Assembly (NCBI GenBank): GCA_963733375.1
Contig: CAVTDB010000013.1
Span: 78,658 to 142,657, forward strand
DNA from: Nitrospirota bacterium
GTDB taxonomy: Bacteria > Nitrospirota > JACRHJ01
Direction: 5' to 3'
DNA: 64,000 nucleotides
Shown in pieces: positions 430 through 63,685 of this stretch. How positions within the stretch are numbered: the first letter of the stretch is position 1; each line of letters begins with the position of its first letter. The notes beneath the pieces were generated by a model. That model worked only from the letters and a program-made list of their open reading frames with translations. It was not told the DNA's origin and did no database searches. The position numbers and the translations under genes are program-made.

Positions 430-578
430 AAAACCGCACTTTTCTTTGCGGAAAGAAAAGCGCCCAAAAGAAACGAGAGTAACTTCCTTATGGCAGGTCT
501 AACCCCAAAAGGGGGTTTTTTTGTCCGGTTTCTCTTTGCGTTACTTTCTCTTTCCCCAAAGAGAAAGTAACGGTTTAA
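430..578. repeat. AT-rich hairpin+mirror-tail inverted doublet, copy 1 (long spacer)
   Basis: CACTTTTCTTT-gcgg-AAAGAAAAGCG-cc-CAAAAGAAA and inverted TTTCTCTTTgc-GTTACTTTCTCTTT-cccc-AAAGAGAAAGTAAC. Confidence 0.85.
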
Positions 579-2960
579 ATGAACGAACACGCATTAAAAG
601 TACTCGAGTTTTACAAGGTCTCCGAGGCTGTTTCCACCCGCGCGGTATCCGGGCCGGGAAGGGCCGAGGCCCTGTCATTCGCCCCATCGTCCGATATAAA
701 AGAAGTCACTCTACGCCTTAAAGAGGCGGACGAGCTGAAAAAATATCTCACGTCCCGGCACGAGTTCCCCATACGCGGCCTGAAGGATATATCGGTCCAG
801 CTTAAAAAGGCGGCGGTGGAAGGGGCGGCGCTATCTCCCGAAGAGCTTTTACGGGTGCTCTCCGTGGCGCGGGCCTCCCGGCTGATGAAGTCCGCGCTCG
901 CGAAAGTAAAGCAGGAATATCCTACCCTAATCAAAAGGGCCGCGGCCCTCTCGGTCTTTGAAAACATAGAGATGGACATCGCCCGCGCGATAGGCGAGGA
1001 CTCGGAGGTGCTGGATTCGGCCTCCCCGGAGCTTAAAAGGATACGGCACGCGCTGACCCAGGTACGCTCCCGGCTGAACCGCGAATTGGAATCCATCATC
1101 CAGGGCCCGTCGTACTCGAAGGCCATTCAGGAGCCGGTGATAACCATGCGCGGCGACCGCTACTGACTCCCGCTCAAGACTAATTTCCGCACCTACCTCC
1201 AGGGCATAGTCCACGACCACTCGCAGACCGGCTCTACTGTATTCGTGGAGCCTGCGGCAACGGTTGAGCTTAACAACCGGCTGGTGGGCCTGAGAAACGA
1301 CGAGGTCCGGGAGATAGAGCGCATCCTCTGGCGGCTCACCGCTACCGTCCGGGAGAGTTGCGACCCGCTCGAAGCGTCTTATATGGCGCTCGTAAAGCTC
1401 GACGCGCTTTATGCCGTCGCGCAGTTCGCCCTGGATATAGACGGGAACCTGCCTTCGGTAAACGACAGGGGTTATGTCGAGCTGAAGGACGCACGCCACC
1501 CCCTGCTTGTGATGTCCAAGGGCAAGGGCGCGACCGTCCCCCTGGACATTAAGCTCGGGCGCGAATTCGATACGCTTGTAATCACGGGCCCCAATACCGG
1601 CGGAAAGACCGTCGTGTTAAAGACGCTCGGCCTTTTGACCTTGATGGCGCAGTCGGGTTTTCTTATCCCTGCCGCGCCGGACTCGGTTATCCCCGTATTC
1701 GAAGACGTATATTCGGATATCGGCGACGAGCAGAGCGTGGAGCAGAATTTAAGCACCTTCTCGTCGCACATGAACCAGATCGTCTCAATGCTGGGCGGCG
1801 CCAATCGCAATACGCTGGTACTATTAGACGAGCTTGGAGCGGGTACGGACCCGTCCGAAGGCTCGGCGCTAGGCGTCGCTATCATCGAGGAGCTTCACCG
1901 GCGCGGGACAAAGACCGTGGTCACGACGCACCACGGGGCGCTTAAGGTCTTTGCGGCGAACACGCCGGGCGTTATGAACGCATCGGTGGAGTTCGACCCG
2001 GAGACGCTTCTACCCACATACAGCCTGGCCATCGGAAGGCCGGGGCGGAGCAGCGCGATACTCGTCGCCTCGCGTCTCGGGATGCCGAAAGGTGTCCTGG
2101 AGCGGGCGAAAGAAGGCCGGGCGGCGGGCGAGGCGGAGCTTGACACGCTCATCGAGAAGCTGGAAAAAGAGGCGCAGGCCGCGCGTGAGGATAGAAGAAA
2201 GGCCGCACAGGAGGCACAAGGCGCGCGTGCGGAAAAGGAACGGCTTCAGGAACTGGTGCGGCGTGCGGAGGACGAGCGGCGCGAGGCGGTGCAGAAGGCA
2301 AAGGAAAAGGCGCAGAACGTCATTAATTCATTGAAGTTCAAGCTCCGGGAGCTGGAAGACCTGGCGAAGAAAGCCGCCGCGATATCGCCTGAGCGCGCGG
2401 AGGTAAAGAAGCACTCGGAAGAGGTGCAGGCGCTTGAAGCGCAGTTAAAGGACGAGTCGGTCCCGGCGGGTCCTATCAGAAGGCTTGAGATGGAGGCGCT
2501 TTCCGTCGGTGACACGGTAAAAGTCTATAAATACAACCGGCTCGGGCAGGTAATAGAAATAAAAAAAGACAAGAAAAAAGTCGTCGTACAGCTTGGCACG
2601 ATGCGGGTGACGCTATCGCCTAGCGAGCTTGAGCTGTCCACCCGCTCCGCACCCGACAGGGCCAGGACGACCGCGTTCACGGTATCGCGGGCCGAGGAAG
2701 ACGAGGACGAAACGTCCCCCGGCATGGAGTTGAATATCATAGGCCTACGGGTGGAAGAAGCTATGTCGAAGGTGCAGAAATTTTTGGAAAAGTCCATGCT
2801 TTCCGGCCTGGGCAGCGTCCGTATAATCCACGGCCGTGGCACGGGCGCACTCCGTAAAGCCATCCGGGAAGAACTGACGATTACCCCCGGCGTGAAGGAT
2901 TTCCACGACGAGGTGTTCGAGCTTGGCGGCGACGCGGTGACGGTGGTGACGTTTAAATAA
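579..2960 (+). CDS. mutS2: Endonuclease MutS2 (in-frame TGA at 1164-1166)
   Basis: ORFs 579-1166 and 1245-2960 share one frame; ITGPNTGGKT Walker A, DELGAGTDP, C-terminal Smr domain IIHGRGTGALR. Confidence 0.93.
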
Positions 2961-2987
2961 TGCCGTCTCGGTCATTAGAGTAACGCC

Positions 2988-3026
2988 TCCCCCATCCCCC
3001 TCTTAGCCTACGAGGGGGATGGGGGA
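2988..3026. repeat. Perfect GC-rich hairpin (terminator/REP-like)
   Basis: TCCCCCATCCCCCTC-loop-GAGGGGGATGGGGGA between mutS2 and the GT2 gene. Confidence 0.6.
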
Positions 3027-3044
3027 CTTCGGAAAGGATTTTGG

Positions 3045-3987
3045 ATGTCAAGTGCGATGCCCCTGGTAAGCGTTATAATACCGACATACAACGGCGAAGC
3101 CTCTATCCGTGAGGCGGTCGAGAGTGCGCTTTCTCAAACTTTTACTGACATGGAAATTATGGTCGTTAACGACGGCTCGACCGACGGCACCGGGAAAAAA
3201 CTTGAAGATTTGATAACAGATGGTCGAATAAAATACATACCTCAGATGAACGCAGGGCCGGGGGCTGCGCGGAATACCGGCATAAAAAATACATCGGGAG
3301 AGCTTATCGCCCTCTTAGACCACGACGATTTATGGATGCCGGAAAAGATAGAGAAGCAGGTCCGCTTCATGCGGGAGAATCCGTGGGCGGATGTCGTTTT
3401 CAGCGACGGCTATTGCATTGATGAAAAAGGGGGAATGAGCGCGCGCGAGAGAGAGCGCGCGCCAAGAAAATATTCGGCCCGGCCTGATTTTATAGAGATG
3501 TTCGGCCAGGGTCTTAATGCCCTGCCGACCTCGGTCATGTTCAGGCGGCAAGCAGTTGAACTAGTCGGGGATTTTAAAGAGAATAAACCGGGCGCTTGGT
3601 TGTCGGACGATTGGGACATGTGGTTCCGGATGGCGGCAAAAGGCCTGCGTTTTGCCTTTATTAGTGAACTGCTCTATATAAAAGAGGGGGCACTCGGCGA
3701 ACTTGACCATGCAAGTACTATCCAGCTCATGCACAAAGGCCCATAACGCCTGTAAGAAAATCGGAGAAGATTTCGCCGTGAGGGATTTAGCGCCTATCAG
3801 GAAAAGGTTCGCCACGGGACGCTTTGACGCCGCCCGTAAGTTCATGTACATGGGCCGCTTCAGGGACGGCCTGGCTTCCGGCATTTGTGCCGCCACGTTT
3901 CAGGGAAAATATTATTTTAAATTGCCTGGGCTCATTGTGAGATATTTTAGACTTATGCTTAAAAGAAATTTTAAGATTAATCAATAA
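3045..3987 (+). CDS. Glycosyltransferase family 2 (frameshifted near 3680-3720)
   Basis: VSVIIPTYN, VVNDGSTD, ARNTGI, LDHDD motifs; C-terminal part in ORF 3703-3987. Confidence 0.85.
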
Positions 3988-5908: not shown

Positions 5909-7734
<1,826 letters not shown>

Positions 7735-7735
<1 letters not shown>

Positions 7736-9069
7736 TGGCCGACGTAATACCGTTTCGGGGAGTAAGGTACAACCATTCGTCAAAATTATCGAAGCTTGTC
7801 GCGCCGCCCTATGACGTAATCTCGCCGCAGTACAGGCAGGAACTCTACGACCGGGACCCTCATAACGTCGTCCGGATAGATTTCGGCATGCCCGAGGAGG
7901 GCGACTCCGCGGACAACAACCAGTACACGCGCGCGGCGAAAAGCCTGAAGCGGTGGATCGGAGACGGGGTCCTGCGGCGCGAAGAGAAGCCCGCGCTGTA
8001 CCTCTACGAAGTGGAGTACGAGACCCCGGCGGGCGAGAAGAAGTCCATGCGCGGCTTCATCTGTCTTCTTCGGCTGGAGGAGTGGGACAAGGGCATAGTC
8101 CTCCCGCATGAAGGCACTCTGAAGGGGCCCAAGGCGGACCGGTTCGAGCTATTAAAATCCGCTTCCGCCGCCGCGAGCCAGGTGTTCTCGCTGTACTCGG
8201 ACCCGGAAAAAAAGATATCGAAGGCGTTCGAGTCCGCCGCGGCTAAGCCCCCTTCCGGGGAGGCGACCGACGACGACGGCTCCGTGCACAGGATCTGGGT
8301 CGTGACAGACCCGGAGATAATCAAGGCGGTGCAAAAGGCCATGGCGGACAAGAAGGTTTTCATTGCCGACGGCCATCACCGTTACGAGACGGCGCTTGGC
8401 TACCGCGACTACAGGAGAAGCGAGGCCGCCGCATGGACGGGCGGCGAGGGCTTTAATTTCATCCCCATGTTCCTCTCCAACATGGACGAGGACGGCCTTA
8501 CGGTACTGCCTACCCATCGGCTGATAAGCGACGCGGGCGAGCTTACGCTGGACTCCGTGCTGGAGCGGTCCTCGCATTATTTCAAAGTAAAGCGGTTCTC
8601 GTTCCTCACGGAAAACGAGTATGACGCGCGGTCGGAGTTCCTTCGTTCACTTTCGGAAGCGGGAAAGAATTCCCACTCCTTCGGCTTCTGCTGGGACAGC
8701 GCCCCATGCTATTACCTCCTTACCCTTAAGGACCTGGACGACGTCGCGAAGGCGCAGTGGTGCCCGCGCTCGGATACCTATTGCAGCCTGGACGTCACGA
8801 TACTTCATTCGCTTATAGTGGAGCGCGTGCTTGGCATCGACACGGAGAAGATTGCCGTGTCCCAGCCGGTGCAGTTCGAGAAAAACGCCGACAGGGCGAT
8901 AGAGCGGGTCGCGGCCGGCGAGTTCGCCATGTGCTTCCTGCTGAACCCGACCAAGGTGCAGGAGGTGAAGGAGGTCGCGCTGGCCCATGAGATAATGCCG
9001 CAGAAATCGACTTACTTTTATCCGAAGCTCCTGACCGGCCTGGTGATAGCGGATTTGAACCATATATAA
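7735..9069 (+). CDS. DUF1015 family protein
   Basis: PPYDVIS, PHEGT, IADGHHRYETA, MPQKSTYFYPKL motifs. Confidence 0.88.
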
Positions 9070-9180
9070 ACCGTTACTTTCTTTTCGAGAAAAGAAAGTA
9101 ACACAAAGAAAAGCTGGGGTTAAAGTCTCGCTTTCTTTTGTGTTACTTTTCTTTCCCGCGAAAGAAAAGTAACGACTTTA
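9067..9180. repeat. AT-rich inverted doublet, copy 2
   Basis: TAAACCGTTACTTTCTTTT-cgag-AAAAGAAAGTAAC-ac-AAAGAAAA ... TTTCTTTT-gt-GTTACTTTTCTTT-cccgcg-AAAGAAAAGTAACGACTTTA. Confidence 0.92.
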
Positions 9181-9191
9181 AGAATTAAAAA

Positions 9192-9650: not shown

Positions 9651-10337
9651 TGGCCTGCGACTGCAAGAACTGCATCGTCAGGGGCCTCACTATTTTTTCC
9701 GGCCTCGGCATAAGCGAGCTTGAGAAGGTCGGGACGCTGATATACCTGAAAAGCTTCCGCCGCAAGAAAGTAATCTTCCTCGAAGACACGCCAAGCAATA
9801 CCGTTTACGTCCTGAAGACCGGCACGGTCAAGTGCTATAAATCGCTGCCCGACGGCCGCGAGCTGATAATCAGCATCCTCACCCCCGGCGACATGCTGGG
9901 CTTCGACTCCCTCTACGAAGACCACTACTCAAATACCGCCGAGGCCATACAGGACACGGAGCTTTGCTGCATCCGAAAAAAGGACCTGGTGGACCTCCTT
10001 CAAGAGCAGCCCCGAGGTCGGCGTCCGGTTCATCAAGAAGATGAACAAGGAGCTTCAACTCGCGCAGGAGCGCATCCGGGACCTGGGCCTGAAGGACGCG
10101 CGTGAGCGTGTGGCGACTCTTCTGATGACGCTCTTCATCTCTCGCGGAGAGGGCCAGGTGCCCAAGTTCACCCTGTCCCGGCAGGAGATCTCCGAGATGG
10201 CGGGCGTCGCCCAGGAAACGGTGATAAGGATAATTTCCGAATTCAAATCGGACGGGCTGATTAAATCGGAAGGCAAAAACATCGTAGTGCTGAAGCCGGA
10301 TGAACTGCGGAAGACGGCAGGGATATTTGAGATATAA
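9650..10337 (+). CDS. Crp/Fnr family regulator with N-terminal Cys cluster (frameshift ~10000)
   Basis: MACDCKNC N-terminus, cNMP-binding fold (LPDGRELII..GDMLG), HTH LSRQEISEMAGVAQETVIR. Confidence 0.88.
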
Positions 10338-10443
10338 TTTCTTCTTTTCTTTTACGGAAAAGAAAAGAAGCAAAAGAAAACGGGGCTAATTTAAGTCCGG
10401 CTTTCTTTTGCTACTTTTCTTTCACCCGAAAGAAAAGTAGGAG
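10335..10443. repeat. AT-rich inverted doublet, copy 3
   Basis: CTTCTTTTCTTT-acgga-AAAGAAAAGAAG-c-AAAAGAAA ... TTTCTTTTg-CTACTTTTCTTT-cacccg-AAAGAAAAGTAG; 3' end merges into the suhB RBS. Confidence 0.88.
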
Positions 10444-10447
10444 GTTT

Positions 10448-12160: not shown

Positions 12161-12299
12161 AAAACCCTTCTTACTTTTCTTTCGCGAAAAAGAAAAGAAA
12201 CAAAAGAAAACGGGGCTGAAAAACAATTTATCGGGTTTAAACAGTCCGGCTTTTCTTTGTGTTACTTTCTTTTCACCTGAAAAGAAAGTAACGACTTTA
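12161..12299. repeat. AT-rich inverted doublet, copy 4
   Basis: Two hairpin+tail units tail-to-tail, ending GTAACGACTTTA just past the uvrA stop. Confidence 0.9.
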
Positions 12300-15578: not shown

Positions 15579-15602
15579 TCGCAGTTTCCAGAGCCGAAGG
15601 GC

Positions 15603-15699: not shown

Positions 15700-15890
15700 T
15701 GATGAACATCGACGATTTACATGAACAGATTATGCTTTTTGAGGAATTGGAAGATTATTTTTCCCGGGTCCATGCAAAGCCTGCGGATGAGGCGCGCAGA
15801 AAACAGTTGCTGCAACAGGTAGTCCAACTGAAAGAGAAAGCAAGCGTGGAATTTCAGGCGCTTAAAGACAAAGAAGAGATAGCGGCTTAA
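15700..15890 (+). CDS. Small hypothetical coiled-coil protein (start approximate)
   Basis: GAGGGG RBS before MMNIDD, followed by a terminator. Confidence 0.55.
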
Positions 15891-15958
15891 AAGGGAATTT
15901 CATTCGGCATGGATATGGAAGCGCCCGCAGACAATGCGGGCGTTTTTTTTAATTTAAT
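15882..15958 (+). repeat. ~75-bp direct repeat copy 1 (stop codon + intrinsic terminator)
   Basis: GCGGCTTAAAAGGGAATTTCATTCGGCATGGATATGG..GCGCCCGCA...TGCGGGCG-T tract; repeated at 17571-17644. Confidence 0.88.
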
Positions 15959-17490: not shown

Positions 17491-17570
17491 CTCCAAAGTT
17501 TCTCTGCGGCCGTGCCCAAAGCTATTCCAGTTTGTGTACGATATGTGGGGAGCGGTAGCTTAAAAAGAAG

Positions 17571-17644
17571 GCGGCGTAAAAGGGAATTTCATTCGGCATG
17601 GATATGGTAGCGCCCGCAGATATGCGGGCGCTTTTTTATTTAAT
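17571..17644 (+). repeat. ~75-bp direct repeat copy 2
   Basis: Matches 15882-15958 with few substitutions. Confidence 0.88.
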
Positions 17645-19438: not shown

Positions 19439-19452
19439 GTCTGCTCACTTCT

Positions 19453-19539
19453 TAATAGCCACTCTCGATTCCCGCGCCAACACATCGTCGGGTAACGCTT
19501 AATCATATATAAATGGCTTTATGGACGAATTTTACCGGG
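19453..19539. repeat. 87-bp direct repeat copy 1
   Basis: Near-identical to 19901-19987. Confidence 0.9.
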
Positions 19540-19789: not shown

Positions 19790-19900
19790 CTCATTCTCCC
19801 GGTAATAGTGGTATGCCAATAGACTTAAGAGATAATACTACAGGCGGCATTTTAGTAAGTCAAGAAAAGCCGACGTGACACTTGCCCGTCCTTCCATTCC

Positions 19901-19987
19901 TAATAGCTTCTCTCGATTCCCGCGCCAACACATCGCCGGTTAACGCTTAATCATATATAAATGGATTTATGGACGATTTTTACCGGG
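19901..19987. repeat. 87-bp direct repeat copy 2
   Basis: Near-identical to 19453-19539. Confidence 0.9.
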
Positions 19988-24206: not shown

Positions 24207-24210
24207 AATC

Positions 24211-24258
24211 TTTTGTTACTTTCTTCACCTGGGAGTAACAAAAAAATAGCACGGTTTA
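24211..24258. repeat. Degenerate copy of the AT-rich repeat
   Basis: TTTTGTTACTTTCTTCACCTGGGAGTAACAAAAAAA...CGGTTTA. Confidence 0.55.
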
Positions 24259-24447: not shown

Positions 24448-25509
24448 ATGCGTATCGCCCAGGTTTCACCGCTTTACGAGAGCGTGCCGCCCAAGCTTTA
24501 CGGGGGGACCGAGCGTGTCGTATCGTATCTGACCGAAGAACTCGTAAGGCAGGGGCATGACGTTACCCTCTTTGCCAGCGGGGATTCCGTTACCTCCGCC
24601 AGGCTCGTCTCGCCGTGCAAAAAGTCGCTCCGGCTGGATACATCCTGCCTGGACTATATCTCTCACCACGTGCTCATGCTTGAGCAGGCGCTAAAGATGC
24701 AGGACGAGTTCGATATCATACATTTCCATATCGATTACATCCACTACCCGACCGTCCGGAGGACGTCCGTCCCTACTGTCACCACGCTCCACGGAAGGCA
24801 GGACCTGCCGGACTTGAAGGCCCTCTACGAGGAGTTCGACGACGTGCCGGTAATATCCATCTCCGATTCTCAAAGGCGTCCGATACCGCACGTGAACTGG
24901 CAGGGCACGGTCTATCACGGCCTGTCCCCGTCGCTTTATTCATTCAGCCGGAGCCCGGGGAAATATCTTGCTTTTTTGGGCAGGATATCGCCGGAGAAGC
25001 GGCTCGACAGGGCGATAGAGATCGCGCGGCGCGCAGGCATGGAGCTTCGGATTGCGGCCAAGGTGGACAAGGCGGACCAGGCTTATTTCGACCGCGAGAT
25101 AAAGCCTCATCTGAACCACAGAGGCGTCATTTTCCTGGGCGAGATAGGGGAGGACCAGAAGGAGGATTTCCTTAGCAACGCCCTGGCGCTTCTTTTCCCC
25201 ATAGACTGGCCGGAGCCCTTCGGGCTTGTGATGATAGAGTCCTTCGCTTGCGGGACGCCCGTAATCGCTTACCCGCAGGGTTCAGTCCCGGAGGTTATAG
25301 ACGACGGCGTTACCGGGTTCATCTGCGAGGATATCGACCAGGCGGTGGCCGCGGTGCAGCGCGCGGCGGATTTCGACAGGCTCTCCTGCAGGAAGCGCTT
25401 CGAGGAGCGGTTCTCATCAGGCAGGATGGCGGAAGATTATTTTAAAATTTATCAGCGGCTGGCCGCGCCGGCCAGAAAGCAAACCGTTACCTTTTTTGGA
25501 AAAAGGTAA
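24448..25509 (+). CDS. Glycosyltransferase family 4
   Basis: MRIAQVSP..ESVPPKLYGGTERVV, EPFGLVMIE..ACGTPV; stop codon lies inside a repeat. Confidence 0.92.
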   Translation: MRIAQVSPLYESVPPKLYGGTERVVSYLTEELVRQGHDVTLFASGDSVTSARLVSPCKKSLRLDTSCLDYISHHVLMLEQALKMQDEFDIIHFHIDYIHYPTVRRTSVPTVTTLHGRQDLPDLKALYEEFDDVPVISISDSQRRPIPHVNWQGTVYHGLSPSLYSFSRSPGKYLAFLGRISPEKRLDRAIEIARRAGMELRIAAKVDKADQAYFDREIKPHLNHRGVIFLGEIGEDQKEDFLSNALALLFPIDWPEPFGLVMIESFACGTPVIAYPQGSVPEVIDDGVTGFICEDIDQAVAAVQRAADFDRLSCRKRFEERFSSGRMAEDYFKIYQRLAAPARKQTVTFFGKR

Positions 25510-25611
25510 CACCAAAAACTTTTAAATTTTTCCGCTTTCTTTTGGTTACTTTTCTTTCACGTGAAAAGATTTATCTGTCCAGAGCGAAGCGAAGACAGAA
25601 AGAAAAGTAAC
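25481..25611. repeat. AT-rich inverted doublet, interrupted by micro-element
   Basis: Type-2 unit GTTACCTTTTTT-gg-AAAAAGGTAAC-ac-CAAAAAC plus type-1 unit split at 25570-25601. Confidence 0.9.
25570..25601. mobile_element. 32-bp micro-element with GA/GA flanks
   Basis: TTTATCTGTCCAGAGCGAAGCGAAGACAGAAA; removing it with one GA restores a perfect host hairpin. Confidence 0.7.
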
Positions 25612-25621
25612 AGGGATTTAG

Positions 25622-28980: not shown

Positions 28981-29066
28981 TCGTCAGTTTTTTCTTTAGG
29001 GAAATGATTTATCTGTCCAGAGCGATAGCGAAGACAGAAAGAAAAGTAATCAAAAGAAACCGGGAC
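28981..29066. repeat. Degenerate AT-rich repeat with 33-bp micro-element at 29008-29040
   Basis: ..TTTTCTTT..GA-[TTTATCTGTCCAGAGCGATAGCGAAGACAGAAA]-GAAAAGTAATCAAAAGAAA. Confidence 0.8.
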
Positions 29067-29154: not shown

Positions 29155-30450
29155 CTATCTGTTCTTGACCGGGTTTACCCTGTCGTAACCTCTCTGCACG
29201 TGGCAGCCGACGACGCACGACCCGCCGTTTGGCGTCTTGGTGTATCGTATCGGGTAGCTCAGCTTGCCGAACGGCACCCTCTCGCGGATATGGTTCGCCT
29301 GCTTGCCCGCGTGCACTTCATGGCAGGCCCTGCATGTGCGGCCCTTGGGGTTTTTGTTTACGTGCACGAAGTGCAGGTTCTTGTCCCCGTTCCTGAAGCC
29401 GGTGAGCGTGGTGGTGAATTCCTCCACCGCGAGGTCCTTGTTATGGCAGGTAAAGCATAGTCCGTATTTGTCGGTCGAATACGCGGTATAAAAATCCTGC
29501 GGGAAGGTGTTTATCAGTATTCGCCGGTAGTCGGAGCCGTGCGGGTTGTGGCAGCCGGTGCAGTCGCCGCTGCGTACCGGGCCGTGCTTGTCCGGATTGT
29601 CGTCAAGCCACGCCTTCATGTTGATCAGGTTGCCGAGCGGCTTGTTATGGCAGCTCAGGCAGAGGTCCTTGCCGCCCGCCTTCAAGAGGGGCTCGAAGTT
29701 CGAGACGTGAGGCTCGTGGCAGTTCAGGCAGGAGCCTTCCATCTGTACGGGCTTATGCGGGAACTTCACCTTGCTGATATATTCCTTCTTATCCTGGTGA
29801 CATTTATAGCAGAGGTCCGGCGGCGCCAGCAACAGCTGGTATTTGTATGGCGAGCCGTGCGGGCTGTGGCAGTTCGTGCAGCGGTCCGCCACCGGCGGGT
29901 GTATCTCTTTTCCCGCCGCGAACTCGTCCTTCTTGTCCACATGGCAGGTGTAGCACAGGTCGTTCCCCGCAGCGATAAGCTGGTACTGGTTCGGGGAGGT
30001 ATGCGGGTCATGGCAGGCGATGCAGTCGCCGGCCGCGGCCGGGCCGTGAACGAACTTCTGCTTTACCTTTTCGTCGTCGTGGCACTTGAAGCAGAGGTCG
30101 GAGCCTTCCGCCAACAACTGGAACTTGAAAGGAGAGCTGTGCGGACTATGGCAGGCCGTGCAGTCCCCGGAAGCGACGGGCCCATGGACGTGGGCCATCG
30201 TATTTTTCTTGTCGTGGCACTGATAGCAGAGGTCGGAGCCCTCCGCCGCCAACTTGAACTTATGCTTGCCCGGCGCCGCTACGTGGCAGTCCTCGCATTC
30301 ATATGACGCGGTCGGGCCGTGCACGAACTTGTTGTCTATTAACTTGGCGTGGCAATTCTTGGCGATACAGCTCTGGTCCGCGAACGCAGGATACGCCATC
30401 GCCGCAAAAAGCGCGGCGGACATGGCCAGGACGGCCAGCTTTCCCCTCAT
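29155..30450 (-). CDS. Periplasmic multiheme cytochrome c (~15 hemes)
   Basis: Signal peptide; 13 CxxCH plus one CX4CH and one CX3CH; paired-CXXCH repeats. Confidence 0.93.
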   Translation of the reverse strand: MRGKLAVLAMSAALFAAMAYPAFADQSCIAKNCHAKLIDNKFVHGPTASYECEDCHVAAPGKHKFKLAAEGSDLCYQCHDKKNTMAHVHGPVASGDCTACHSPHSSPFKFQLLAEGSDLCFKCHDDEKVKQKFVHGPAAAGDCIACHDPHTSPNQYQLIAAGNDLCYTCHVDKKDEFAAGKEIHPPVADRCTNCHSPHGSPYKYQLLLAPPDLCYKCHQDKKEYISKVKFPHKPVQMEGSCLNCHEPHVSNFEPLLKAGGKDLCLSCHNKPLGNLINMKAWLDDNPDKHGPVRSGDCTGCHNPHGSDYRRILINTFPQDFYTAYSTDKYGLCFTCHNKDLAVEEFTTTLTGFRNGDKNLHFVHVNKNPKGRTCRACHEVHAGKQANHIRERVPFGKLSYPIRYTKTPNGGSCVVGCHVQRGYDRVNPVKNR

Positions 30451-36633: not shown

Positions 36634-38145
36634 TTATTCCGCCTTCCCCGCTTCTGGCGGCTTCGGATGCCTTCTGCGCCTACCGGGCTTCTTTGCCGCA
36701 TCGCCGGGCTGGTCCTGAGCCGTGCCTGGATTGCCGGGGGTTTGCGTAAGCGGCTTTGCCGCAACCTTTGGCGGTTCACCCGCTGGTCTATCGGACGGCC
36801 CTCGGGATGGCCTGGCGCCTGATCTCTCTGGCGGTCTGCCGCCGGATCTCTCAGGAGGTCTGCCGCCGGGGCCGCCGCTTCTCGCGCCACCCCTGCCCCC
36901 TCTGCCGCCGCGTCTCGCCTCCAGCTCCGCGCGCTCTTCGCGCCTGACCCGGTCGCGCTCCTCCGAGGCCTTTTTCTCCTCCGGCGTGCGTCTCTTCTCC
37001 TTCGCGAACATATCTTCGTCCGGCCATGCGACCGGTATCTTCATCCCGATATATTTCTCTATCGGCTCAAGTCCGAATACGTACTGCTCGTCCGCGAAAG
37101 AGTATGCCTTGCCCGTCGCGCCAGCACGGGCGGTGCGGCCTATCCTGTGGACGTAGTCTTCCGGGTCCTGCGGGAGGTCGTAGTTGAATACGTGCGTGAC
37201 GCCCTCGACGTGCAGGCCGCGCGATGCAACGTCCGTGCCGATGAGTATCGGGAGGTCGCCGGCCTTGAACTCGTTCAATATCCTGAGCCTCTTATTCTGC
37301 GGGATGTCGCCGGAGATCATGTTCGCGGGATAGCCGTTACGGTTCAGGCGCTCGACCAGCTTCTCCGCCTCGCGCTTCGTGTTCACGAACATCATGCTCC
37401 GCTCCGGGTTTTCCTTCTTCAGGAGTCCCAGGAGCAGGCTGAATTTTTCCTGCCGCCCGACATGGAAAAGAGACTGTTCCACCTTCTCTACCGTGACCTG
37501 CTCCGGGCTTATCTCTATCTTCACCGGGTTATTCATGTGCTCGTAAGCGAGTTCCATGACCCGGAAGCTGAGCGTCGCGGAGAAGAGCATCGCCTGACGT
37601 TTGTCGAACGGGGGCATCCGCCGCAGCATATAGCGAATATCGGCGATGAAGCCCATGTCGAACATCCGGTCGGCTTCGTCGACCACAGCGATTTCGATAT
37701 ATTTAAGCGAGAGCGCCTTCTGTTTGAAGTAATCTATCAGCCTGCCCGGCGTACCCACCAGAAAATCTACCCCTTTGTCCAGGTCGTCTTTCTGCTTCTG
37801 GTAGTCCACACCGCCATAGACGGCGAGCATCTTGAGCCCGGTATGCGCGCCAAGCGTCTTCGCGTCCTCCAGGATCTGGACCGCGAGCTCGCGAGTCGGC
37901 GCGATTACCAGCGCTCTTGGAGCGCGGCCTTCGGCTATCTCTCCGGTAATGGGTTTCAGGCGGTTGAATATGGTGATAAGAAATGCGGCGGTCTTGCCGG
38001 TGCCGGTCTGTGCCTGCACGGCGGCGTCCTTTCCGGCAAGCGTTACCGGGAGGGCGGCTTCCTGCACCGGGGTCAGGTATTTAAACCCTGCTTCCCGGAT
38101 GCCTTCAAGCAGGTTATTGTCGAGGTTCAGTTGGTCGAATTCCAT
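36634..38145 (-). CDS. rhlB: DEAD-box RNA helicase (RhlB-like)
   Basis: AQTGTGKT, PTRELA, DEADRMFD, SAT, HRIGRTARAG; RGG/low-complexity tail. Confidence 0.88.
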   Translation of the reverse strand: MEFDQLNLDNNLLEGIREAGFKYLTPVQEAALPVTLAGKDAAVQAQTGTGKTAAFLITIFNRLKPITGEIAEGRAPRALVIAPTRELAVQILEDAKTLGAHTGLKMLAVYGGVDYQKQKDDLDKGVDFLVGTPGRLIDYFKQKALSLKYIEIAVVDEADRMFDMGFIADIRYMLRRMPPFDKRQAMLFSATLSFRVMELAYEHMNNPVKIEISPEQVTVEKVEQSLFHVGRQEKFSLLLGLLKKENPERSMMFVNTKREAEKLVERLNRNGYPANMISGDIPQNKRLRILNEFKAGDLPILIGTDVASRGLHVEGVTHVFNYDLPQDPEDYVHRIGRTARAGATGKAYSFADEQYVFGLEPIEKYIGMKIPVAWPDEDMFAKEKRRTPEEKKASEERDRVRREERAELEARRGGRGGRGGARSGGPGGRPPERSGGRPPERSGARPSRGPSDRPAGEPPKVAAKPLTQTPGNPGTAQDQPGDAAKKPGRRRRHPKPPEAGKAE

Positions 38146-40718: not shown

Positions 40719-40834
40719 TAAAGTCGTTACTTTTCTTTTGGGTAAAAGAAAAGTAACACAAAAGAAAACCGGACTTAAAAACAAACTTACAAGTTTTTGG
40801 CGTTACCTTTTTACCAAAAAGGTAACAGGCTTAA
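40719..40834. repeat. AT-rich inverted doublet (type1+type2)
   Basis: TAAAGTCGTTACTTTTCTTTT-gggt-AAAAGAAAAGTAAC-ac-AAAAGAAAA ... GTTTTTGGC-GTTACCTTTTT-acc-AAAAAGGTAAC. Confidence 0.92.
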
Positions 40835-42615: not shown

Positions 42616-42724
42616 ACCGTTACCTTTTTGGAAAAAGGTAACGCCAAAAACTTTTGGACAGGTTTAACCAGTCCAGCTTTCTTTTGTGTTACTTTTCTTT
42701 CTCGAAAGAAAAGTAACGACTTTA
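42613..42724. repeat. AT-rich inverted doublet (type2+type1)
   Basis: Begins on the TPR gene TAA, ends GTAACGACTTTA adjoining the lemA RBS. Confidence 0.92.
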
Positions 42725-55951: not shown

Positions 55952-56539
55952 TCAGGCCAGGCGGCGGAAATACTCGGCTATCTCTTCATCGGGGCTGACG
56001 AACCGTTCCACCTGGCATATTAAGGCGGTCCGGTTATGTTCCCGGATGGCCGTCTCAAGCTGCGGAGTCAGGCCGGGCGCCCGTGAGAGCCGGACCGCTG
56101 GAGCGTTTAAAGCGACAATGTCGCATTTTTTAAGGTTTTCCAGCGCGCCCGGCTTCATCTCCTCGAGGCTCTCTCCCGCGACGAAAAAAGCCAGGTCCGC
56201 CTTTAGAATCCTTGCCGCGGCATTCCCCTCGATGATTACGCCCGGAGCGCCCGATTTATAGACCATATCAAAGGCAATCGAGAGGGCGTCGGAGAGGTCG
56301 CGCTCCCCGGCGCGTATCCATATCACTTCCCTGGCCCCGGCCTGTCTCATCAGGGCGGTGTCCTTGCCGGGTGTCAAAATTTCGGCCTCGTCGTCCGTAA
56401 CGCAGACGAGGAGGTCGTCATGCGTCACCTTTATCGCGGCATAACCAGGCAGGCTCCTGCTAAGGAGCGTCGCCAGGTACGTCTTCCCGACGCCGCTATG
56501 GGAGCCGGATATTGTGATTACGCGAGGGTGCAAAGTCAA
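55952..56539 (-). CDS. MobB-like P-loop protein
   Basis: ISGSHSGVGKT, AIK, GKDT....AGA..V.W, IIEGN. Confidence 0.7.
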   Translation of the reverse strand: MTLHPRVITISGSHSGVGKTYLATLLSRSLPGYAAIKVTHDDLLVCVTDDEAEILTPGKDTALMRQAGAREVIWIRAGERDLSDALSIAFDMVYKSGAPGVIIEGNAAARILKADLAFFVAGESLEEMKPGALENLKKCDIVALNAPAVRLSRAPGLTPQLETAIREHNRTALICQVERFVSPDEEIAEYFRRLA

Positions 56540-56543
56540 TCCC

Positions 56544-56652
56544 TAAAACCGTTACTTTTCTTTCACGGGAAAGAAAAGTAACACAAAAGAAAGCGGGGCT
56601 GTTAGTCCAAAAGTTTTTGGCGTTACCTTTTTTCAAAAAGGTAACGGTTTTA
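56544..56652. repeat. AT-rich inverted doublet (type1+type2)
   Basis: TAAAACCGTTAC...GTAACGGTTTTA; overlaps the ptb 3' end. Confidence 0.92.
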
Positions 56653-58666: not shown

Positions 58667-58730
58667 AGCACTCTATCATAACAGAGGGAGGGGCTATGTT
58701 CAAGGAAAGTAACGCCCTGAACCGCATTAA

Positions 58731-58815
58731 CCCTCTCCCTGGCCCCTCTCCCAGCGACGGGAGAGGGGTGGAAGATTTTAACCCTCGCCCCATGTGGGAG
58801 AGGTAGGGAGAGGGG
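58731..58815. repeat. G/C-rich triplex-motif inverted doublet (boxC-like)
   Basis: CCCTCTCCC-tgg-CCCCTCTCCC-agcgac-GGGAGAGGGG and an inverted partner ending GGGAGAGGGG. Confidence 0.8.
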
Positions 58816-58817
58816 TA

Positions 58818-61050: not shown

Positions 61051-61065
61051 AGTAGACCCCTCCTC

Positions 61066-61998
61066 CTATCTTAAGAAAAATTCGCCAGACGGGCTGTTGG
61101 ACCCGTGGATGTCTGAGTGACAGTTCAGGCAGTCTCTGTAAATTGCCTGTACGGCCAGGCTCCTGGAGGGATTGTTCGGCACGTTCGTCGACGCGCCCAT
61201 GGCGTACAGTGTTCCGGGATGCCTCGAGCCGGAATGGCACGACTGGCAGAGGTAGATACTCTTACGGGCCAGGAGCTTGGTATGGTTCGAGCCGTGCGGC
61301 GTATGGCAATTCATGCAGTCCTCTACCACCGGCTTGTGCTCGAACAGAAACGGCCCGCGCTTCTCCGCGTGGCACTCGAAGCACTTGTCGTTTATCGTGA
61401 GGGCGTCAACTAACTTCGGGGCTATCGTCCCGTGCGGGTTATGGCAGTTCGTGCAGGTCAGCTTGCCCTCCCGGACCGGATGGTGGCTGGAGCGCCATAA
61501 CTCGGCCCGGATGTCGCCGTGGCAGCGCGCGCAGAGATCTATCTCGCTGTCCATCACTAAAAGATGCCTGTAGCCGTGGTGTACGGAGTGGCAGTTCGTG
61601 CATGCGAGGCTCCTGGTTTCGTGCGTGCTGCCTTTCCAGAGGGCAAGCTTTCCCCTTAAATGGCAGCCCAGACATATCTCGTTCATGGCCGGGGAGTCCA
61701 GTTTCTTCGGGTTCCGGATCTTGGTGGGGTCGCCCTCTTTCGCGTGGTTTGCGCCGGGGCCGTGGCAGGTTTCGCATCCCTGGAACGTCGTGAAGAATTT
61801 CCCGGCCTGCATATGGATGTTCGTCTGGAAATTCGCCGCCTCGTCCGGATGGCACCCGGCGCAGACGTTGTTGCCCACGTAACCGTTGTCGTCCGGAGCG
61901 CCGGCTGCGCCATCGGCCGCATAGGCCGAAAGGCTGGTGATAACCAGCAGGAATAAAGCAGCGGCTGCCGCCTTAAAAAAGGTAATCTTCCCGTACAT
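61066..61998 (-). CDS. DmsE/MtrA family decaheme cytochrome c
   Basis: Exactly 10 CxxCH; CHAEKRGPF.FEH.PV.EDC, CHSDIHGSN.PSG. Confidence 0.95.
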   Translation of the reverse strand: MYGKITFFKAAAAALFLLVITSLSAYAADGAAGAPDDNGYVGNNVCAGCHPDEAANFQTNIHMQAGKFFTTFQGCETCHGPGANHAKEGDPTKIRNPKKLDSPAMNEICLGCHLRGKLALWKGSTHETRSLACTNCHSVHHGYRHLLVMDSEIDLCARCHGDIRAELWRSSHHPVREGKLTCTNCHNPHGTIAPKLVDALTINDKCFECHAEKRGPFLFEHKPVVEDCMNCHTPHGSNHTKLLARKSIYLCQSCHSGSRHPGTLYAMGASTNVPNNPSRSLAVQAIYRDCLNCHSDIHGSNSPSGEFFLR

Positions 61999-62311
61999 TG
62001 ACCCCTCCTTCCGGGGGATGAGCTATCCTCCCCGACTGATTTGCGCCGCCCGCGGAATGGCGCGGCAAGTGAATTGCTCTTTACTTCTGGATTGCTTTAT
62101 ACTTTGGAAAAGAAGAAATTTACGGATTGCCTAAGGCTGGGAAAAGATGCGCGCTATTTCTTAACTCTTAACAAAATAACCAAATTTTGTCAATCATACC
62201 CCGCAAATAAACGGGTGTGGCCGGCTTTTGCCAAGTAACGATTCCAGCTTCGCTCAAATCCATGATAGTTTATGCTTGCCAACGGTTTGCAGGGTGATGT
62301 AATATCGCCTG

Positions 62312-63628
62312 ATGGAAATAATTACCTTAATCGCTTCGATAGCGACGCTTTTCCTTGCGGCCGTCATCCTTCTGCGCAAAAGCGGGGCCGACCGGGAGGC
62401 GCAAAAGGTTCAAGACCTTTTTAACCAAGGCCGATCCGAGACTGCCGACACGTTAAGGAAGGTATCCTCCGAGCTCTCCGAGAGGATTGCCGCGTCTTCC
62501 GCCGGGGTGCGCGAGGGGGTCTCGGACAGGTTAGCTGACGCCCTGACCGTGATGCAGGACAGGCTCTCCCTGAACTTGGGCGAGATACGGGACAAGGTGG
62601 ATGCGGAACTCAAGGCGGGGCGCCTTGAATCCGCCAAGGCGGGGACGGCGGCCACCGAAGCCATTATTAAAAGACTTGGCGAGTTCGGGCAGAACACCGC
62701 TTTATCCCTTGACTCCATACGGGAGAAGGTGGACCTCCGGCTGATGGAGATCGGAAACCAGGTGCAGGCGAAGCTGGACGAGAACATCAAGGAAGGGTTC
62801 GCTCATTTCGAGAAAGTCCAGGAGCACCTGAAGAAGGCGGAGATTCAGCTTGCCGGCCTGTCCGCGGTCGGAGTGTCCGTGAACGAGCTGAACAGCCTGC
62901 TGAAGCTGCCGCACCTCCGGGGCGGCTTCGGGGAGGCGGCGCTGGAGCTTTTGCTGTCGGAGTTTTTGCCGTCGGACCTATACGAGCTTCAGGCCCAGAT
63001 AGGCGCCAACCGGGTTGACGTCCTGGTGAAACTCCCCGGCGCGTCGCTCCCCATAGACAGCAAGTTCCCGCGCGAGCAGGTCCTGCCGCTGTTCGACAGT
63101 TGCGACCAGGGAAAAATCGCCGAGGCCAGAAAGGCGCTGTGCGCTGTCGTGAAGGCCCAGGCGAAGGACATATCGGAGAAGTACGTCCGTCCGGAGCTGG
63201 GCACGACTAACATGGGCCTTATGTTCCTGCCGTCCGAGCTGCTTTATTTCGAGATCGTCCGGGATACGGAGCTATGGGCCGCGCTCACGAAGCTGAAAGT
63301 ATTTCCGGTATCTCCCAATACCCTGGCCGTGACGTTAAACGGCGTCCGCATCTCGTATGACTACTACCAGATGGCCAAGGGCGTGGAGCAGACGGTGGAG
63401 AATATAAGGAAGGCGCGGAAGCATTTCGGCGATTTCGAGAGGAAGTTCGAAGACGTCGGGAAGTCCATCACAAAAGCGCAGGACGCCTACCACACCGCCT
63501 CCACCCACATCGGCAGGTACAGCACTTCCGTCAACCGCTTGACCGGCGGAGCTGCCCCATCGAAGAGATACCAGAATAGCAAACCTTTTCCACCTTTTTG
63601 GGAAAAAGGTGGAGCCAAAAACTTTTAA
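62312..63628 (+). CDS. rmuC: DNA recombination protein RmuC family (3' end runs into repeat)
   Basis: N-terminal TM, coiled coil, RG.FGE, PIDSKFP, I.EKY, MFLPSE, SPNTL. Confidence 0.88.
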   Translation: MEIITLIASIATLFLAAVILLRKSGADREAQKVQDLFNQGRSETADTLRKVSSELSERIAASSAGVREGVSDRLADALTVMQDRLSLNLGEIRDKVDAELKAGRLESAKAGTAATEAIIKRLGEFGQNTALSLDSIREKVDLRLMEIGNQVQAKLDENIKEGFAHFEKVQEHLKKAEIQLAGLSAVGVSVNELNSLLKLPHLRGGFGEAALELLLSEFLPSDLYELQAQIGANRVDVLVKLPGASLPIDSKFPREQVLPLFDSCDQGKIAEARKALCAVVKAQAKDISEKYVRPELGTTNMGLMFLPSELLYFEIVRDTELWAALTKLKVFPVSPNTLAVTLNGVRISYDYYQMAKGVEQTVENIRKARKHFGDFERKFEDVGKSITKAQDAYHTASTHIGRYSTSVNRLTGGAAPSKRYQNSKPFPPFWEKGGAKNF

Positions 63629-63685
63629 ACTGTCCAGCTTTCTTTTGTGTTACTTTTCTTTCTCGAAAGAAAAGTAACGACTTTA
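63581..63685. repeat. AT-rich inverted doublet (type2+type1)
   Basis: TCCACCTTTTT-ggg-AAAAAGGTGGA-gc-CAAAAAC ... TTTCTTTTgtGTTACTTTTCTTT-ctcg-AAAGAAAAGTAACGACTTTA. Confidence 0.92.

What the first reader, a model, noticed from the sequence alone, without database searches (positions are those of the whole stretch)
430..63685. Dispersed inverted-doublet repeat family whose co-variation spells an intrastrand triple helix
Seen: about 11 intergenic loci (430, 9067, 10335, 12161, 24211, 25481, 28981, 40719, 42613, 56544, 63581), most with two units tail-to-tail. Each unit is pyrimidine arm, variable loop, purine arm, short linker, purine tail. The tail changes with the stem as its MIRROR image: arm AAAGAAAA has tail AAAAGAAA; arm AAAAGAAA has tail AAAGAAAA (9067 left unit, 12161 right unit); arm AAAGAGAAA has tail AAAGAGAAA (~530-570); arm AAAAAGG has tail CCAAAAA (type 2). 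Established: a hairpin plus a mirror-repeat homopurine/homopyrimidine third segment is the geometry of an intrastrand Hoogsteen triplex (T.A-T, C+.G-C on the pyrimidine-rich strand). Inference: structure rather than sequence is under selection, so this is a triplex-forming REP/REPIN-like element family at roughly 1 locus per 6 kb, acting in ssDNA or mRNA.
Basis: partly seen in the sequence, partly recalled or inferred. Interest (0 to 1): 0.8.

Follow-up and report, generated by a model that had tools for sequence, protein, structure and literature searches.

The report
Dispersed hairpin-plus-mirror-tail triplex-type repeat
A short intergenic repeat found hundreds of times in this genome keeps a hairpin and a neighbouring tail in exactly the mirror relation a three-stranded helix needs, making it an A/T-rich cousin of the triplex-forming BoxC repeats of E. 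coli.

Summary
All 11 window loci exist. Genome-wide there are 238 cleanly parsed units: 147 type 1 and 91 type 2, forming 90 tail-to-tail doublets and 58 singles.

The purine tail mirrors the purine arm in 136 of 142 parsable type-1 units. About 13 allele classes across five genera obey the same rule, including length changes.

A second, unreported covariation links loop position 2 to the base after the tail (paired in 40 of 41 cells: G:C 24, C:G 16). This fits a small pseudoknot clamp.

The two units of a doublet are systematically unlike, so Watson-Crick pairing between units does not explain the tail.

Between two genomes about 95% identical, tails never changed (0 of 361 sites). About 8 of 59 orthologous units switched allele in arm, arm and tail together, and 37 of 96 sites differ by insertions or deletions.

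No RAYT, TnpB or linked transposase was found. The same unit occurs at low copy in genomes of at least five phyla.

The architecture matches the known intrastrand-triplex repeats (BoxC/PIT/TMECO). I therefore call it a new A/T-rich variant of a known kind. Triplex folding is inferred, not shown.

The parts
436..575 (.). Spaced two-unit locus. Left unit: hairpin 439-460 with purine tail about 466-473. Right unit 529-572: arms AAAGAGAAA with an identical, self-mirror pyrimidine tail.
9073..9173 (.). Doublet. Unit 1a (9073-9113, purine tail on the 3' side) plus unit 1b (9131-9173, pyrimidine tail on the 5' side), tail to tail and heterotypic.
   Evidence: Conserved in G001 and G002, but other content at the same site in other genera.
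10341..10440 (.). Doublet 1c + 1b. It ends 9 nt before the start codon of the next gene.
   Evidence: Replaced by an 826-nt ORF-bearing segment in G001.
12174..12292 (.). Doublet: degenerate 1b-like unit plus 1a unit.
   Evidence: At the same site G006 has a 1b unit.
24209..24240 (.). Decayed single unit; the purine arm is mostly deleted.
25486..25612 (.). Doublet: type 2 unit (25486-25518) plus a 1b unit whose hairpin carries a nested insertion of about 30 nt.
28984..29061 (+). Single type-1 unit with the same nested insertion in its hairpin. The tail still mirrors the arm.
40726..40826 (.). Doublet 1c (40726-40768) + type 2 (40794-40826).
42618..42717 (.). Doublet type 2 (42618-42650) + 1b (42677-42717).
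56551..56646 (.). Doublet 1b (56551-56593) + type 2 (56614-56646). The whole doublet is absent from the syntenic site of G002.
63589..63678 (.). Doublet type 2 (63589-63621) + 1b (63638-63678). In G002 the type-1 unit at this site is the other allele: arms, tail, loop and post-tail are all switched.

Best explanation
This is a dispersed intergenic repeat that turns over rapidly. Its building block is an autonomous folding unit of about 45 nt, made of four parts:
- a perfect 13-14 bp hairpin (a 4-5 bp foot plus a 9-10 bp homopyrimidine/homopurine core);
- a polar G-rich loop;
- a 0-2 nt linker;
- a tail as long as the core.

The tail is kept as the reverse of the purine arm. The most economical reading is that single-stranded nucleic acid folds the tail back into the groove of its own hairpin as a third strand, one tail base per base pair. 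Two Watson-Crick pairs between the loop and the bases just after the tail then clamp it.

On the pyrimidine-tail strand every triplet belongs to the parallel code: T.A-T, C+.G-C at isolated G, and G.G-C next to the foot. On the purine-tail strand the core triplets are A.A-T and G.G-C.

Units sit tail to tail in deliberately unlike pairs. The pair therefore cannot collapse into one long perfect palindrome.

What is shown: the sequence rules, the conservation and the turnover.
What is inferred: the triplex itself, its strand, and whether it acts as DNA or RNA.

I favour transient single-stranded DNA, for two reasons. The stems contain no wobble pairs, and there is no orientation bias relative to transcription. 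The likely consequence is local genome instability and copy replacement, as reported for E. coli TMECO.
For: 1. Mirror rule in the own genome.
- 136 of 142 parsable type-1 units obey it; 126 of 131 informative ones; there are no a-arm/b-tail chimeras.
- In a second genome, 58 of 60 type-1 units obey it.
- On alignment A1, 578 of 659 mirror cells are identical. Slid registers give 39-55%, a direct-repeat register 68%, and the shuffle maximum is 523.

2. About 13 allele classes in five genera obey the same rule. They include mirror-pair alleles in the type-2 class and length covariation: A4GG with CCA4, A5GG with CCA5, A6G with CA6, and A5GA3 with A3GA5.

3. The loop and the post-tail covary.
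- Columns 20:49 are G:C in 24, C:G in 16 and unpaired in 1.
- Columns 21:48 are G:C in 61 of 66.
- 0 of 500 shuffles reach the observed values.
- The covariation holds in both the 1a and the 1b background.

4. Core allele and loop/post class occur in all combinations although they are interleaved along the unit. Simple descent therefore cannot explain both rules.

5. Pairing between the two units of a doublet does not explain the tail.
- a/b doublets are heterotypic in 18 of 18 cases (G000) and 12 of 12 (G002).
- The post-tail class is the same in the two units in only 3 of 25 and 2 of 14 doublets.

6. Differences per site between orthologous units of G000 and G002:
- tail 0 of 361;
- purine arm 1 of 386;
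- loop 27 of 147;
- centre 95 of 450;
- coding flank 192 of 4500.

7. Singles and low-copy units in other phyla keep the tail without any partner unit.

8. The same architecture, in G/C-rich form, folds into a triplex in vitro by CD and NMR (PMC4666352, Results read).
Against: - No experiment or tool here shows a triplex.
- The foot helix covaries strongly and lies between the purine arm and the tail, with only a 0-2 nt linker. A third strand cannot reach the mirror register unless the foot opens and becomes the 4-5 nt triplex loop.
- On the purine-tail strand, the C opposite the foot-proximal G is not a known antiparallel triplet.
- A-rich purine-motif triplexes are weak, and C+ needs protonation.
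- The zero change in tails could partly reflect homogenisation by copy replacement rather than selection at each site. About 8 of 59 orthologous units were replaced wholesale.
- Doublets in an Oscillospiraceae genome are homotypic.
- For TMECO, in vivo DMS footprinting did not detect a stable triplex (PMC4666352, Discussion).
Confidence: 0.5

Rival explanations
1. RNA reading. In the transcript, the 3' unit of every doublet (pyrimidine tail, pyrimidine arm, loop, purine arm) folds into an H-type pseudoknot. Its U-rich first loop forms 9-10 major-groove triples (U.A-U, C+.G-C). This would be a MALAT1-sized triple helix that blocks exonucleases or ribosomes between genes of an operon.
For: - The topology fits a classical H-type pseudoknot, with covariation in the 2-bp stem.
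- Pyrimidine-motif intrastrand triplexes form in RNA whereas purine-motif ones do not (PMC4666352, Introduction).
- Natural RNA triple helices use U.A-U, C.G-C and, in SAM-II, G.G-C (PMC4836648, passages).
- Doublets fill the gap between stop codon and ribosome-binding site in co-directional gene pairs (64 of 83). In most, the stop lies 2-11 nt before the hairpin.
- A doublet presents one such unit whichever strand is transcribed.
Against: - Wobble pairs are essentially absent from the stems. There is 1 G:U among the cells of the 14 hairpin pairs in 66 distinct sequences, no cell with a one-sided change, and no G.T among the 2 internal mismatches in 3094 cells. This is unusual for an RNA under structural selection.
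- Single units show no orientation bias relative to transcription (22 versus 18), nor do mixed doublets (27 versus 17).
- 9 of 83 doublets lie between divergent genes.
Confidence: 0.2
2. Protein-recognition module. Hairpin plus tail is the end of a non-autonomous mobile element, read by a trans-acting single-strand DNA enzyme (HUH-type or other). The mirror relation reflects how that enzyme, or an intramolecular guide contact, reads the end, not a full triplex.
For: - Turnover is rapid: 37 of 96 syntenic unit sites differ by 15 nt or more between two genomes about 95% identical.
- Whole units are replaced at fixed sites.
- Distribution is patchy and low-copy in at least five phyla.
- The outer flanks are inverted and conserved.
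- Loop polarity is fixed.
Against: - No Y1_Tnp was found in 0 of 3 genomes of the genus that holds the most copies.
- The Y1_Tnp genes of other genera have no unit nearby (0 of 6 loci).
- No TnpB and no DDE_Tnp_1 were found. The single IS630-family ORF is not flanked by units.
- No known protein reads two strands as mirror images.
- Target-site duplications are not clean.
Confidence: 0.2
3. Plain Watson-Crick palindrome. The doublet is a cloverleaf-forming MITE or a bidirectional terminator (A-tract, G/C-rich central stem, U-tract). The mirror relation is then an accident of a few co-propagating subfamilies of low-complexity sequence.
For: - Watson-Crick-only folding gives an outer stem, two hairpins and a central arm. 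In it, 324 of 742 tail-1 bases pair with tail 2.
- Central stems followed by the T-rich tail score as terminator-like.
- The a and b alleles dominate the counts.
Against: - Tail-to-tail pairing is systematically mismatched (30 of 30 a/b doublets are heterotypic).
- The central stem carries a built-in mismatch: the post-tail class is the same in only 5 of 39 doublets.
- The post-tail base covaries with its own loop, not with the partner unit.
- Singles and units in other phyla keep the tail.
- About 13 allele classes obey the rule.
- Most doublets sit inside apparent operons directly before a ribosome-binding site.
Confidence: 0.1

Closest known systems
E. coli BoxC = PIT elements = TMECO intrastrand triplex motif (Hoyne and Maher 2000/2002, as cited in Holder et al.; Holder et al. 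2015, PMC4666352)
   Same: - Dispersed intergenic repeat.
- Same order of parts: pyrimidine arm, loop of 3-6 nt, purine arm, short second loop, purine tail mirroring the arm (class II, with a pyrimidine-motif class on the other strand).
- Occurs also as inverted ('palindromic') pairs.
- No associated gene function.
- Loci are unusually variable between close strains.
   Different: - G/C-rich rather than A/T-rich, with no sequence similarity.
- TMECO has no foot helix between arm and tail.
- No loop-to-post-tail covariation, no a/b allele system, no heterotypic pairing rule and no cross-phylum identity is reported in the sections I read (Abstract, Introduction passages, Results parts 1-2, Discussion part 1).
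- TMECO has CD and NMR proof in vitro. This family has none.
REP/BIME and REPIN-RAYT systems
   Same: - Hundreds of short palindromic intergenic units.
- Units pair in inverted orientation as two unlike types, as the Y and Z REPs do in BIMEs.
- Located at gene ends within operons.
   Different: - No RAYT in the genus.
- No GTAG-type head.
- REPs have no mirror tail.
- REP families are lineage-specific, whereas this unit recurs across phyla.
- The BIME Y/Z comparison and the GTAG head are recalled, not tested here.
MITEs such as Correia, RUP and ERIC
   Same: - About 115 bp with inverted ends.
- Folds into a long stem-loop.
- Presence/absence polymorphism between close genomes.
- Abuts stop codons and ribosome-binding sites.
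   Different: - No parent insertion sequence found.
- No clean target-site duplication.
- The internal three-way covariation has no counterpart that I know of in those families (recalled).
Major-groove RNA triple helices (MALAT1/PAN ENE, telomerase RNA, SAM-II and preQ1-II pseudoknots)
   Same: - U-rich Hoogsteen strand, U-rich Watson-Crick strand and A-rich strand in the same order.
- An isolated C+.G-C among U.A-U triples.
- H-type pseudoknot topology.
- 9-10 triples would equal MALAT1, described as the largest natural example (PMC4836648).
   Different: - Those are single-copy functional RNAs with experimental structures.
- Here there are hundreds of copies, no evidence of transcription-level function, no wobble pairs, and both strands are equally represented.

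Membership tests
Intrastrand triplex motif repeats (PIT/BoxC/TMECO kind) | Three consecutive blocks on one strand: pyrimidine block, complementary purine block, and a third block that mirrors the purine block, separated by short loops. | tested here: met
   136 of 142 type-1 units. On alignment A1, 578 of 659 mirror cells are identical, against at most 55% when the register is slid.
Intrastrand triplex motif repeats (PIT/BoxC/TMECO kind) | Second loop of a few nucleotides that lets the third block fold back in register. | tested here: inconclusive
   The linker is 0-2 nt. The register is reached only if the 4-5 bp foot opens and serves as the loop, yet the foot covaries as a helix.
Intrastrand triplex motif repeats (PIT/BoxC/TMECO kind) | Sequence homology to the TMECO consensus. 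| tested here: not met
   The unit is A/T-rich and unrelated in sequence to the consensus quoted in PMC4666352. The window doublet has no match in E. coli genomes.
Intrastrand triplex motif repeats (PIT/BoxC/TMECO kind) | Triplex formation of the isolated strand in vitro. | not testable with these tools
   Needs CD, UV melting or NMR.
REPIN/REP with RAYT | A Y1 (RAYT) transposase gene in the genome, typically flanked by the repeats. | tested here: not met
   PF01797 has 0 matches in G000 (81% complete), G001 (97%) and G002 (94%). The Y1 genes in other genera have no unit in 0 of 6 loci.
MITE | Terminal inverted repeats, target-site duplication, and a related autonomous element. | tested here: inconclusive
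   Inverted ends are present. Empty sites in G002 are not clean. No autonomous element was found.
Intrinsic (bidirectional) terminator | G/C-rich stem directly followed by a U-tract. | tested here: inconclusive
   Unit hairpins are A/U-rich. Central stems carry systematic mismatches. A few score as terminator-like. Most doublets lie inside apparent operons.
Rfam RNA families | A match to any of 4227 covariance models. | tested here: not met
   No hit at gathering score in the window. Only chance-level hits in 12 loci from other phyla.

The most novel reading that the evidence does not exclude
The pyrimidine-tail strand of each unit, as RNA or transient single-stranded DNA, folds into a 9-10-triple major-groove triple helix locked by a 2-bp pseudoknot. 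This would be the first natural triple helix backed by multi-allelic three-way covariation. It would be a portable module spread horizontally through at least five bacterial phyla. Its two mirror alleles would be exchanged at fixed loci by an unknown copy-replacement mechanism that needs no RAYT.
Probability: 0.3. Interest if true: 0.85.

Novelty: new variant of a known kind. Interest (0 to 1): 0.65.

Why it matters
Intrastrand triplex repeats are known in bacteria, but their biological reality rests on in vitro folding of one G/C-rich motif. This family adds what that case lacks, namely evolutionary evidence:
- many alleles in which arm, arm and tail change together;
- a clamp pair that covaries;
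- tails that do not change while neighbouring bases change at about 20%.

It also yields an immediate, cheap test. Native and allele-swapped oligonucleotides should differ in a third-strand melting transition.

If the fold is real, three things would follow:
- it would be a natural triple helix the size of MALAT1's in bacteria;
- it could explain why these loci turn over so fast;
- it would raise the question of what moves an identical 45-nt module between phyla without a recognisable transposase.

Tried and rejected
- RAYT/REPIN model: rejected for the genus.
- IS630 parent: one DDE_3 ORF at G000:C13:2071-2499, G/C-rich and not flanked by units.
- TnpB and DDE_Tnp_1: no match in an 81%-complete genome.
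- Rfam: nothing.
- Integron attC idea (a doublet in almost every intergenic gap in some stretches): dropped, because doublets are scattered over all contigs among ordinary genes.
- Parallel-complement reading of loop versus post-tail (loop 1:t1, loop 2:t2): rejected. It fails for all loops that start with A, about 40 units. The antiparallel reading fails only for the GGAA loops, about 10 units.
- Cross-unit pairing (the tail of one unit with the pyrimidine arm of its partner) as the primary rule: rejected, because units paired with type 2, and singles, keep the intra-unit mirror.
- Inversion as the a/b switch mechanism: rejected by inspection of the alignments.
- Gene neighbours of the unit in other phyla: ordinary genes (GmrSD, glycosyltransferases, SpoU, PEPCK), no transposase.
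- Phage origin: no match in viral contigs.
- Plasmids and E. coli genomes: no match.
- Expression: no RNA holder was listed for the stretch, and read laying was not used.
- Literature: no paper in the searchable library prints the unit's 14-mers apart from an unrelated human-gene paper. Searches for triple helix plus bacterial repeat terms found only PMC4666352 as directly relevant.
- PMC102562 is not held. The (T,C,G)-motif third-strand precedent is recalled, and the one paper I opened did not confirm it.


Full report
**What is there**

The window lies on contig 13 of a 2.39-Mb, 26-contig, 55% G+C assembly that is 81% complete. Relatives carrying the same repeat are labelled Nitrospirota or Nitrospirae MAGs in their record titles.

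Reading the listed coordinates confirms all 11 loci:
- nine two-unit loci;
- one decayed single unit (24209-24240);
- one single unit with a nested insertion (28984-29061).

A genome-wide scan for homopyrimidine/homopurine hairpins gave 296 merged hairpins. Of these, 238 could be parsed with exactly one tail: 147 type 1 and 91 type 2. They form 90 adjacent pairs, all tail to tail, plus 58 singles. The hairpin pattern occurs 69 times per strand in the genome. The same pattern read backwards occurs 0 times.

**Anatomy of a unit**

In the orientation with a purine tail, a unit reads as follows:
- a conserved outer flank of about 7 nt;
- a 4-5 bp foot, GTTAC with GTAAC in 80 units, and several compensated variants;
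- a 9-10 nt pyrimidine core;
- a loop of 2-4 nt that is always G-rich in this orientation, never reversed;
- the complementary purine core and the foot;
- a linker of 0-2 nt;
- a tail as long as the core;
- a short G/C-rich post-tail.

The stems are essentially perfect. There are 2 internal mismatches in 3094 cells, and neither is G.T.

**The mirror rule**

| Allele | Purine arm core | Tail | Units |
|---|---|---|---|
| 1b | A3-G-A4 | A4-G-A3 | 73 |
| 1a and 1d | A4-G-A3 | A3-G-A4 | 52 |
| 1c | A4-G-A4 | A4-G-A4 | 10 |
| rare | A5-G-A3 | A3-G-A5 | 1 |
| rare | AAAGAGAAA | identical (self-mirror) | 2 |

- In all, 136 of 142 parsable units obey the rule, and 126 of 131 informative ones. No a-arm carries a b-tail or the reverse.
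- Ten thousand shuffles of tails among units gave a mean of 59 matches and a maximum of 79.
- The six exceptions are single uncompensated changes.
- In 400 kb of a second genome of the genus, 58 of 60 type-1 units obey the rule.
- On a 71-sequence alignment (66 distinct rows), 578 of 659 mirror cells are identical. The only non-identical column pair is the foot-proximal G, which faces C in 65 of 66 rows.
- Sliding the register by 1-3 columns gives 39-55%. A direct-repeat register gives 68%. The maximum in 1000 shuffles is 523.

Sampled regions of four other genera add further alleles that obey the same rule (tail = reverse of the arm, with the foot-proximal G or GG replaced by C or CC):
- AAAGAAGG with CCAAGAAA;
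- AAGAAAGG with CCAAAGAA;
- A4GG with CCA4;
- A6G with CA6;
- A3GA3 with itself;
- two longer forms.

Together this makes about 13 allele classes. Several are mirror pairs or length variants. The rule is therefore not the accident of two subfamilies.

Loop position 2 covaries with the second base after the tail. Loops of the form xGGx go with CC and loops xCGx go with CG. This holds in the 1a background (17 of 17 and 10 of 10) and in the 1b background (25 of 26 and 29 of 30). One GCAA loop goes with TG.

The pair-counting tool gave the following:
- columns 20:49: G:C 24, C:G 16, unpaired 1, gap 25;
- columns 21:48: G:C in 61 of 66;
- 0 of 500 shuffles reached the observed values, and every slid control was far lower.

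The best reading is two antiparallel Watson-Crick pairs between the loop and the post-tail. That is an H-type pseudoknot contact, which the tail can only make by running the full length of the stem.

Core allele and loop/post class occur in all combinations although their segments are interleaved. One crossover cannot reshuffle them. At least one of the two rules must therefore be maintained by selection or by a templating process.

**Doublets**

- Watson-Crick-only folding makes a doublet a cloverleaf: an outer stem, two hairpins and a central arm. In that fold, 324 of 742 tail-1 bases pair with tail 2.
- Yet the two units are systematically unlike. All a/b doublets are heterotypic, 18 of 18 in G000 and 12 of 12 in G002. 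This builds a G.T plus A.C mismatch into tail-to-tail pairing.
- The post-tail class is the same in only 3 of 25 and 2 of 14 doublets. This builds a mismatch into the central stem.
- The tail and the post-tail therefore answer to their own hairpin and not to the partner unit.
- Singles keep the tail as well.

**Evolution between close genomes**

Ninety-six G000 units have syntenic flanks in the fetched 400 kb of G002, which is about 95% identical.
- At 37 of these sites the two genomes differ by 15 nt or more. The causes are absent doublets, extra genes and nested insertions. The empty sites are not clean.
- Of the 59 length-conserved pairs, 14 have three or more changes in arms plus tail.
- About eight of those 14 are allele switches at the same locus. 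Pyrimidine arm, purine arm and tail are all switched while the flanks and the partner unit stay unchanged. One of them is the window unit at 63638-63678.
- These are copy replacements, not serial point mutations.

In the 45 unswitched pairs, differences per site were as follows:

| Segment | Differences / sites |
|---|---|
| tail | 0 / 361 |
| purine arm | 1 / 386 |
| pyrimidine arm | 7 / 386 |
| foot | 15 / 334 |
| loop | 27 / 147 |
| centre | 95 / 450 |
| coding flank | 192 / 4500 |

Pairs with three or more arm or tail changes were excluded beforehand. Single tail changes would have been kept, and none occurred.

At wider distance the doublet sites are not conserved. Other genera have other content at the three window sites examined. 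At one of them, G006 has a 1b unit where G000 has a 1a unit.

**Distribution**

- The exact hairpin occurs in 9 of 11 other genomes of the same family (four genera). It occurs in 0 of 19 genomes of eleven other families of the phylum.
By record title these are several Stenotrophomonas species and MAGs of Oscillospiraceae, Clostridia, Eubacteriales, Bacteroidales, Chryseobacterium, Thiotrichaceae, Desulfobacterales and Bacillota.
- Copy numbers there are 1-5 per genome.
- Distribution is patchy: 6 of 81 sampled genomes in the family of one Oscillospiraceae genome.
- The neighbouring genes are ordinary.
- None was found in viral contigs.

**Context**

- Of 83 doublets with two flanking predicted genes, 64 lie between co-directional genes, 10 between convergent genes and 9 between divergent genes. 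The background intergenic proportions are 65%, 17% and 17%. The gene calls come from my own crude ORF filter.
- The upstream stop codon lies 2-11 nt before the hairpin in most cases. The downstream start lies 4-35 nt after it.
- There is no orientation bias relative to transcription. Mixed doublets are 27 versus 17, and singles are 22 versus 18.

**Enzymes**

- No Y1/RAYT gene was found in the three genomes of the genus.
- Y1 genes in other genera have no unit nearby, 0 of 6 loci.
- No TnpB and no DDE_Tnp_1 were found.
- One IS630-family ORF exists, unrelated to the units.

**Interpretation**

A tail that is the reverse of the adjacent purine arm, equal to it in length and joined to it by a short turn, places like opposite like in an antiparallel fold-back. 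This is the purine-strand pairing of a triplex and of nothing else I know. On the complementary strand the tail lies parallel to the purine arm, with T opposite A and C opposite isolated G.

The foot-proximal exception (C on one strand, G on the other) fits a known code only on the pyrimidine-tail strand, where it gives G.G-C. That mixed T, C, G third-strand motif is recalled from the triplex literature and was not verified here.

In the class terms of Holder et al. (PMC4666352):
- the purine-tail strand is class II;
- the pyrimidine-tail strand is class IV;
- according to that paper, only the pyrimidine motif forms in RNA.

The absence of wobble pairs and of any transcriptional orientation bias makes me favour single-stranded DNA over RNA, but weakly.

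The main structural objection is the foot. It covaries as a helix, yet it sits between arm and tail with only a 0-2 nt linker. The mirror register therefore needs the foot to open and act as the triplex loop. Hairpin-with-foot and triplex may be two states. In A-form RNA a very short linker can cross the deep groove, which I recall from pseudoknot geometry.

**Comparison with what is known**

The layout is that of E. coli BoxC/PIT/TMECO: a C-rich block, a loop, a G-rich block, a 3-nt loop, and a mirroring G-rich block. According to the sections of PMC4666352 that I read:
- TMECO folds into a triplex by CD and NMR in vitro;
- it occurs also as inverted pairs;
- it has no promoter or terminator activity;
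- it marks loci that vary between strains;
- it was not seen as a stable triplex by DMS footprinting in vivo.

The present family shares the kind but not the sequence. It adds the allele system, the clamp, the heterotypic pairing rule and the cross-phylum spread. It fails the REPIN test, and the MITE test is inconclusive.

**Verdict**

It is a new A/T-rich variant of the known intrastrand-triplex repeats. The triplex fold is well motivated by covariation but unproven, the mobilising mechanism is unknown, and the function is open.

Noticed in passing
window 25565-25597 and 29003-29037; also near 15596; 27 copies genome-wide: A nested element of about 30-40 nt, with short inverted ends CTGTC and GACAG, sits inside hairpin loops. 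It is found in the triplex-type units and also in unrelated G/C-rich hairpins, as if it targets hairpin tips.
   Followed up: partly
G000:C11:5654 and the G001 site orthologous to window 12174-12210: A second nested insertion of about 55-60 nt, holding a small G/C-rich stem-loop, interrupts the purine arm of type-1 units at the same position in two genomes.
   Followed up: partly
G003:C4 (for example 37123-37165, 119600-119640) and G004 (for example C14:66044-66088, C19:3443-3488): Relatives also carry G/C-rich repeats with a C-rich arm, a loop, a G-rich arm and a G-rich tail. These are TMECO-like intrastrand triplex or G-quadruplex candidates.
   Followed up: no
L106:6290-6560 and L105:6165-6400 (Stenotrophomonas genome G031): In Stenotrophomonas the unit forms one end of a G/C-rich non-coding element of about 230-280 nt. 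It is present at two loci and is conserved across several named species. It has no Rfam match and no plasmid match.
   Followed up: partly
window 19449-19539 and 19897-19987: Two 91-nt direct repeats, 92% identical and 448 nt apart.
   Followed up: no
window 15874-15948 and 17563-17637: Two 75-nt repeats, 83% identical, each ending in a G/C-rich hairpin plus a T-run (terminator-like). No Rfam hit.
   Followed up: no
window 29430-30260 and 61288-61476: Periodic repeats whose reverse complement encodes CXXCH-type motifs. These are probably multihaem cytochrome c genes on the minus strand.
   Followed up: no
outer flanks of most units, for example window 9066-9072 and 10332-10340: The conserved outer flank often contains the stop codon of the upstream gene, and in reverse that of a convergent gene. 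The element therefore begins within 2-11 nt of the stop.
   Followed up: partly
G000:C13:2071-2499: The only IS630-family (DDE_3) ORF of the assembly. It is G/C-rich and has no unit nearby.
   Followed up: yes
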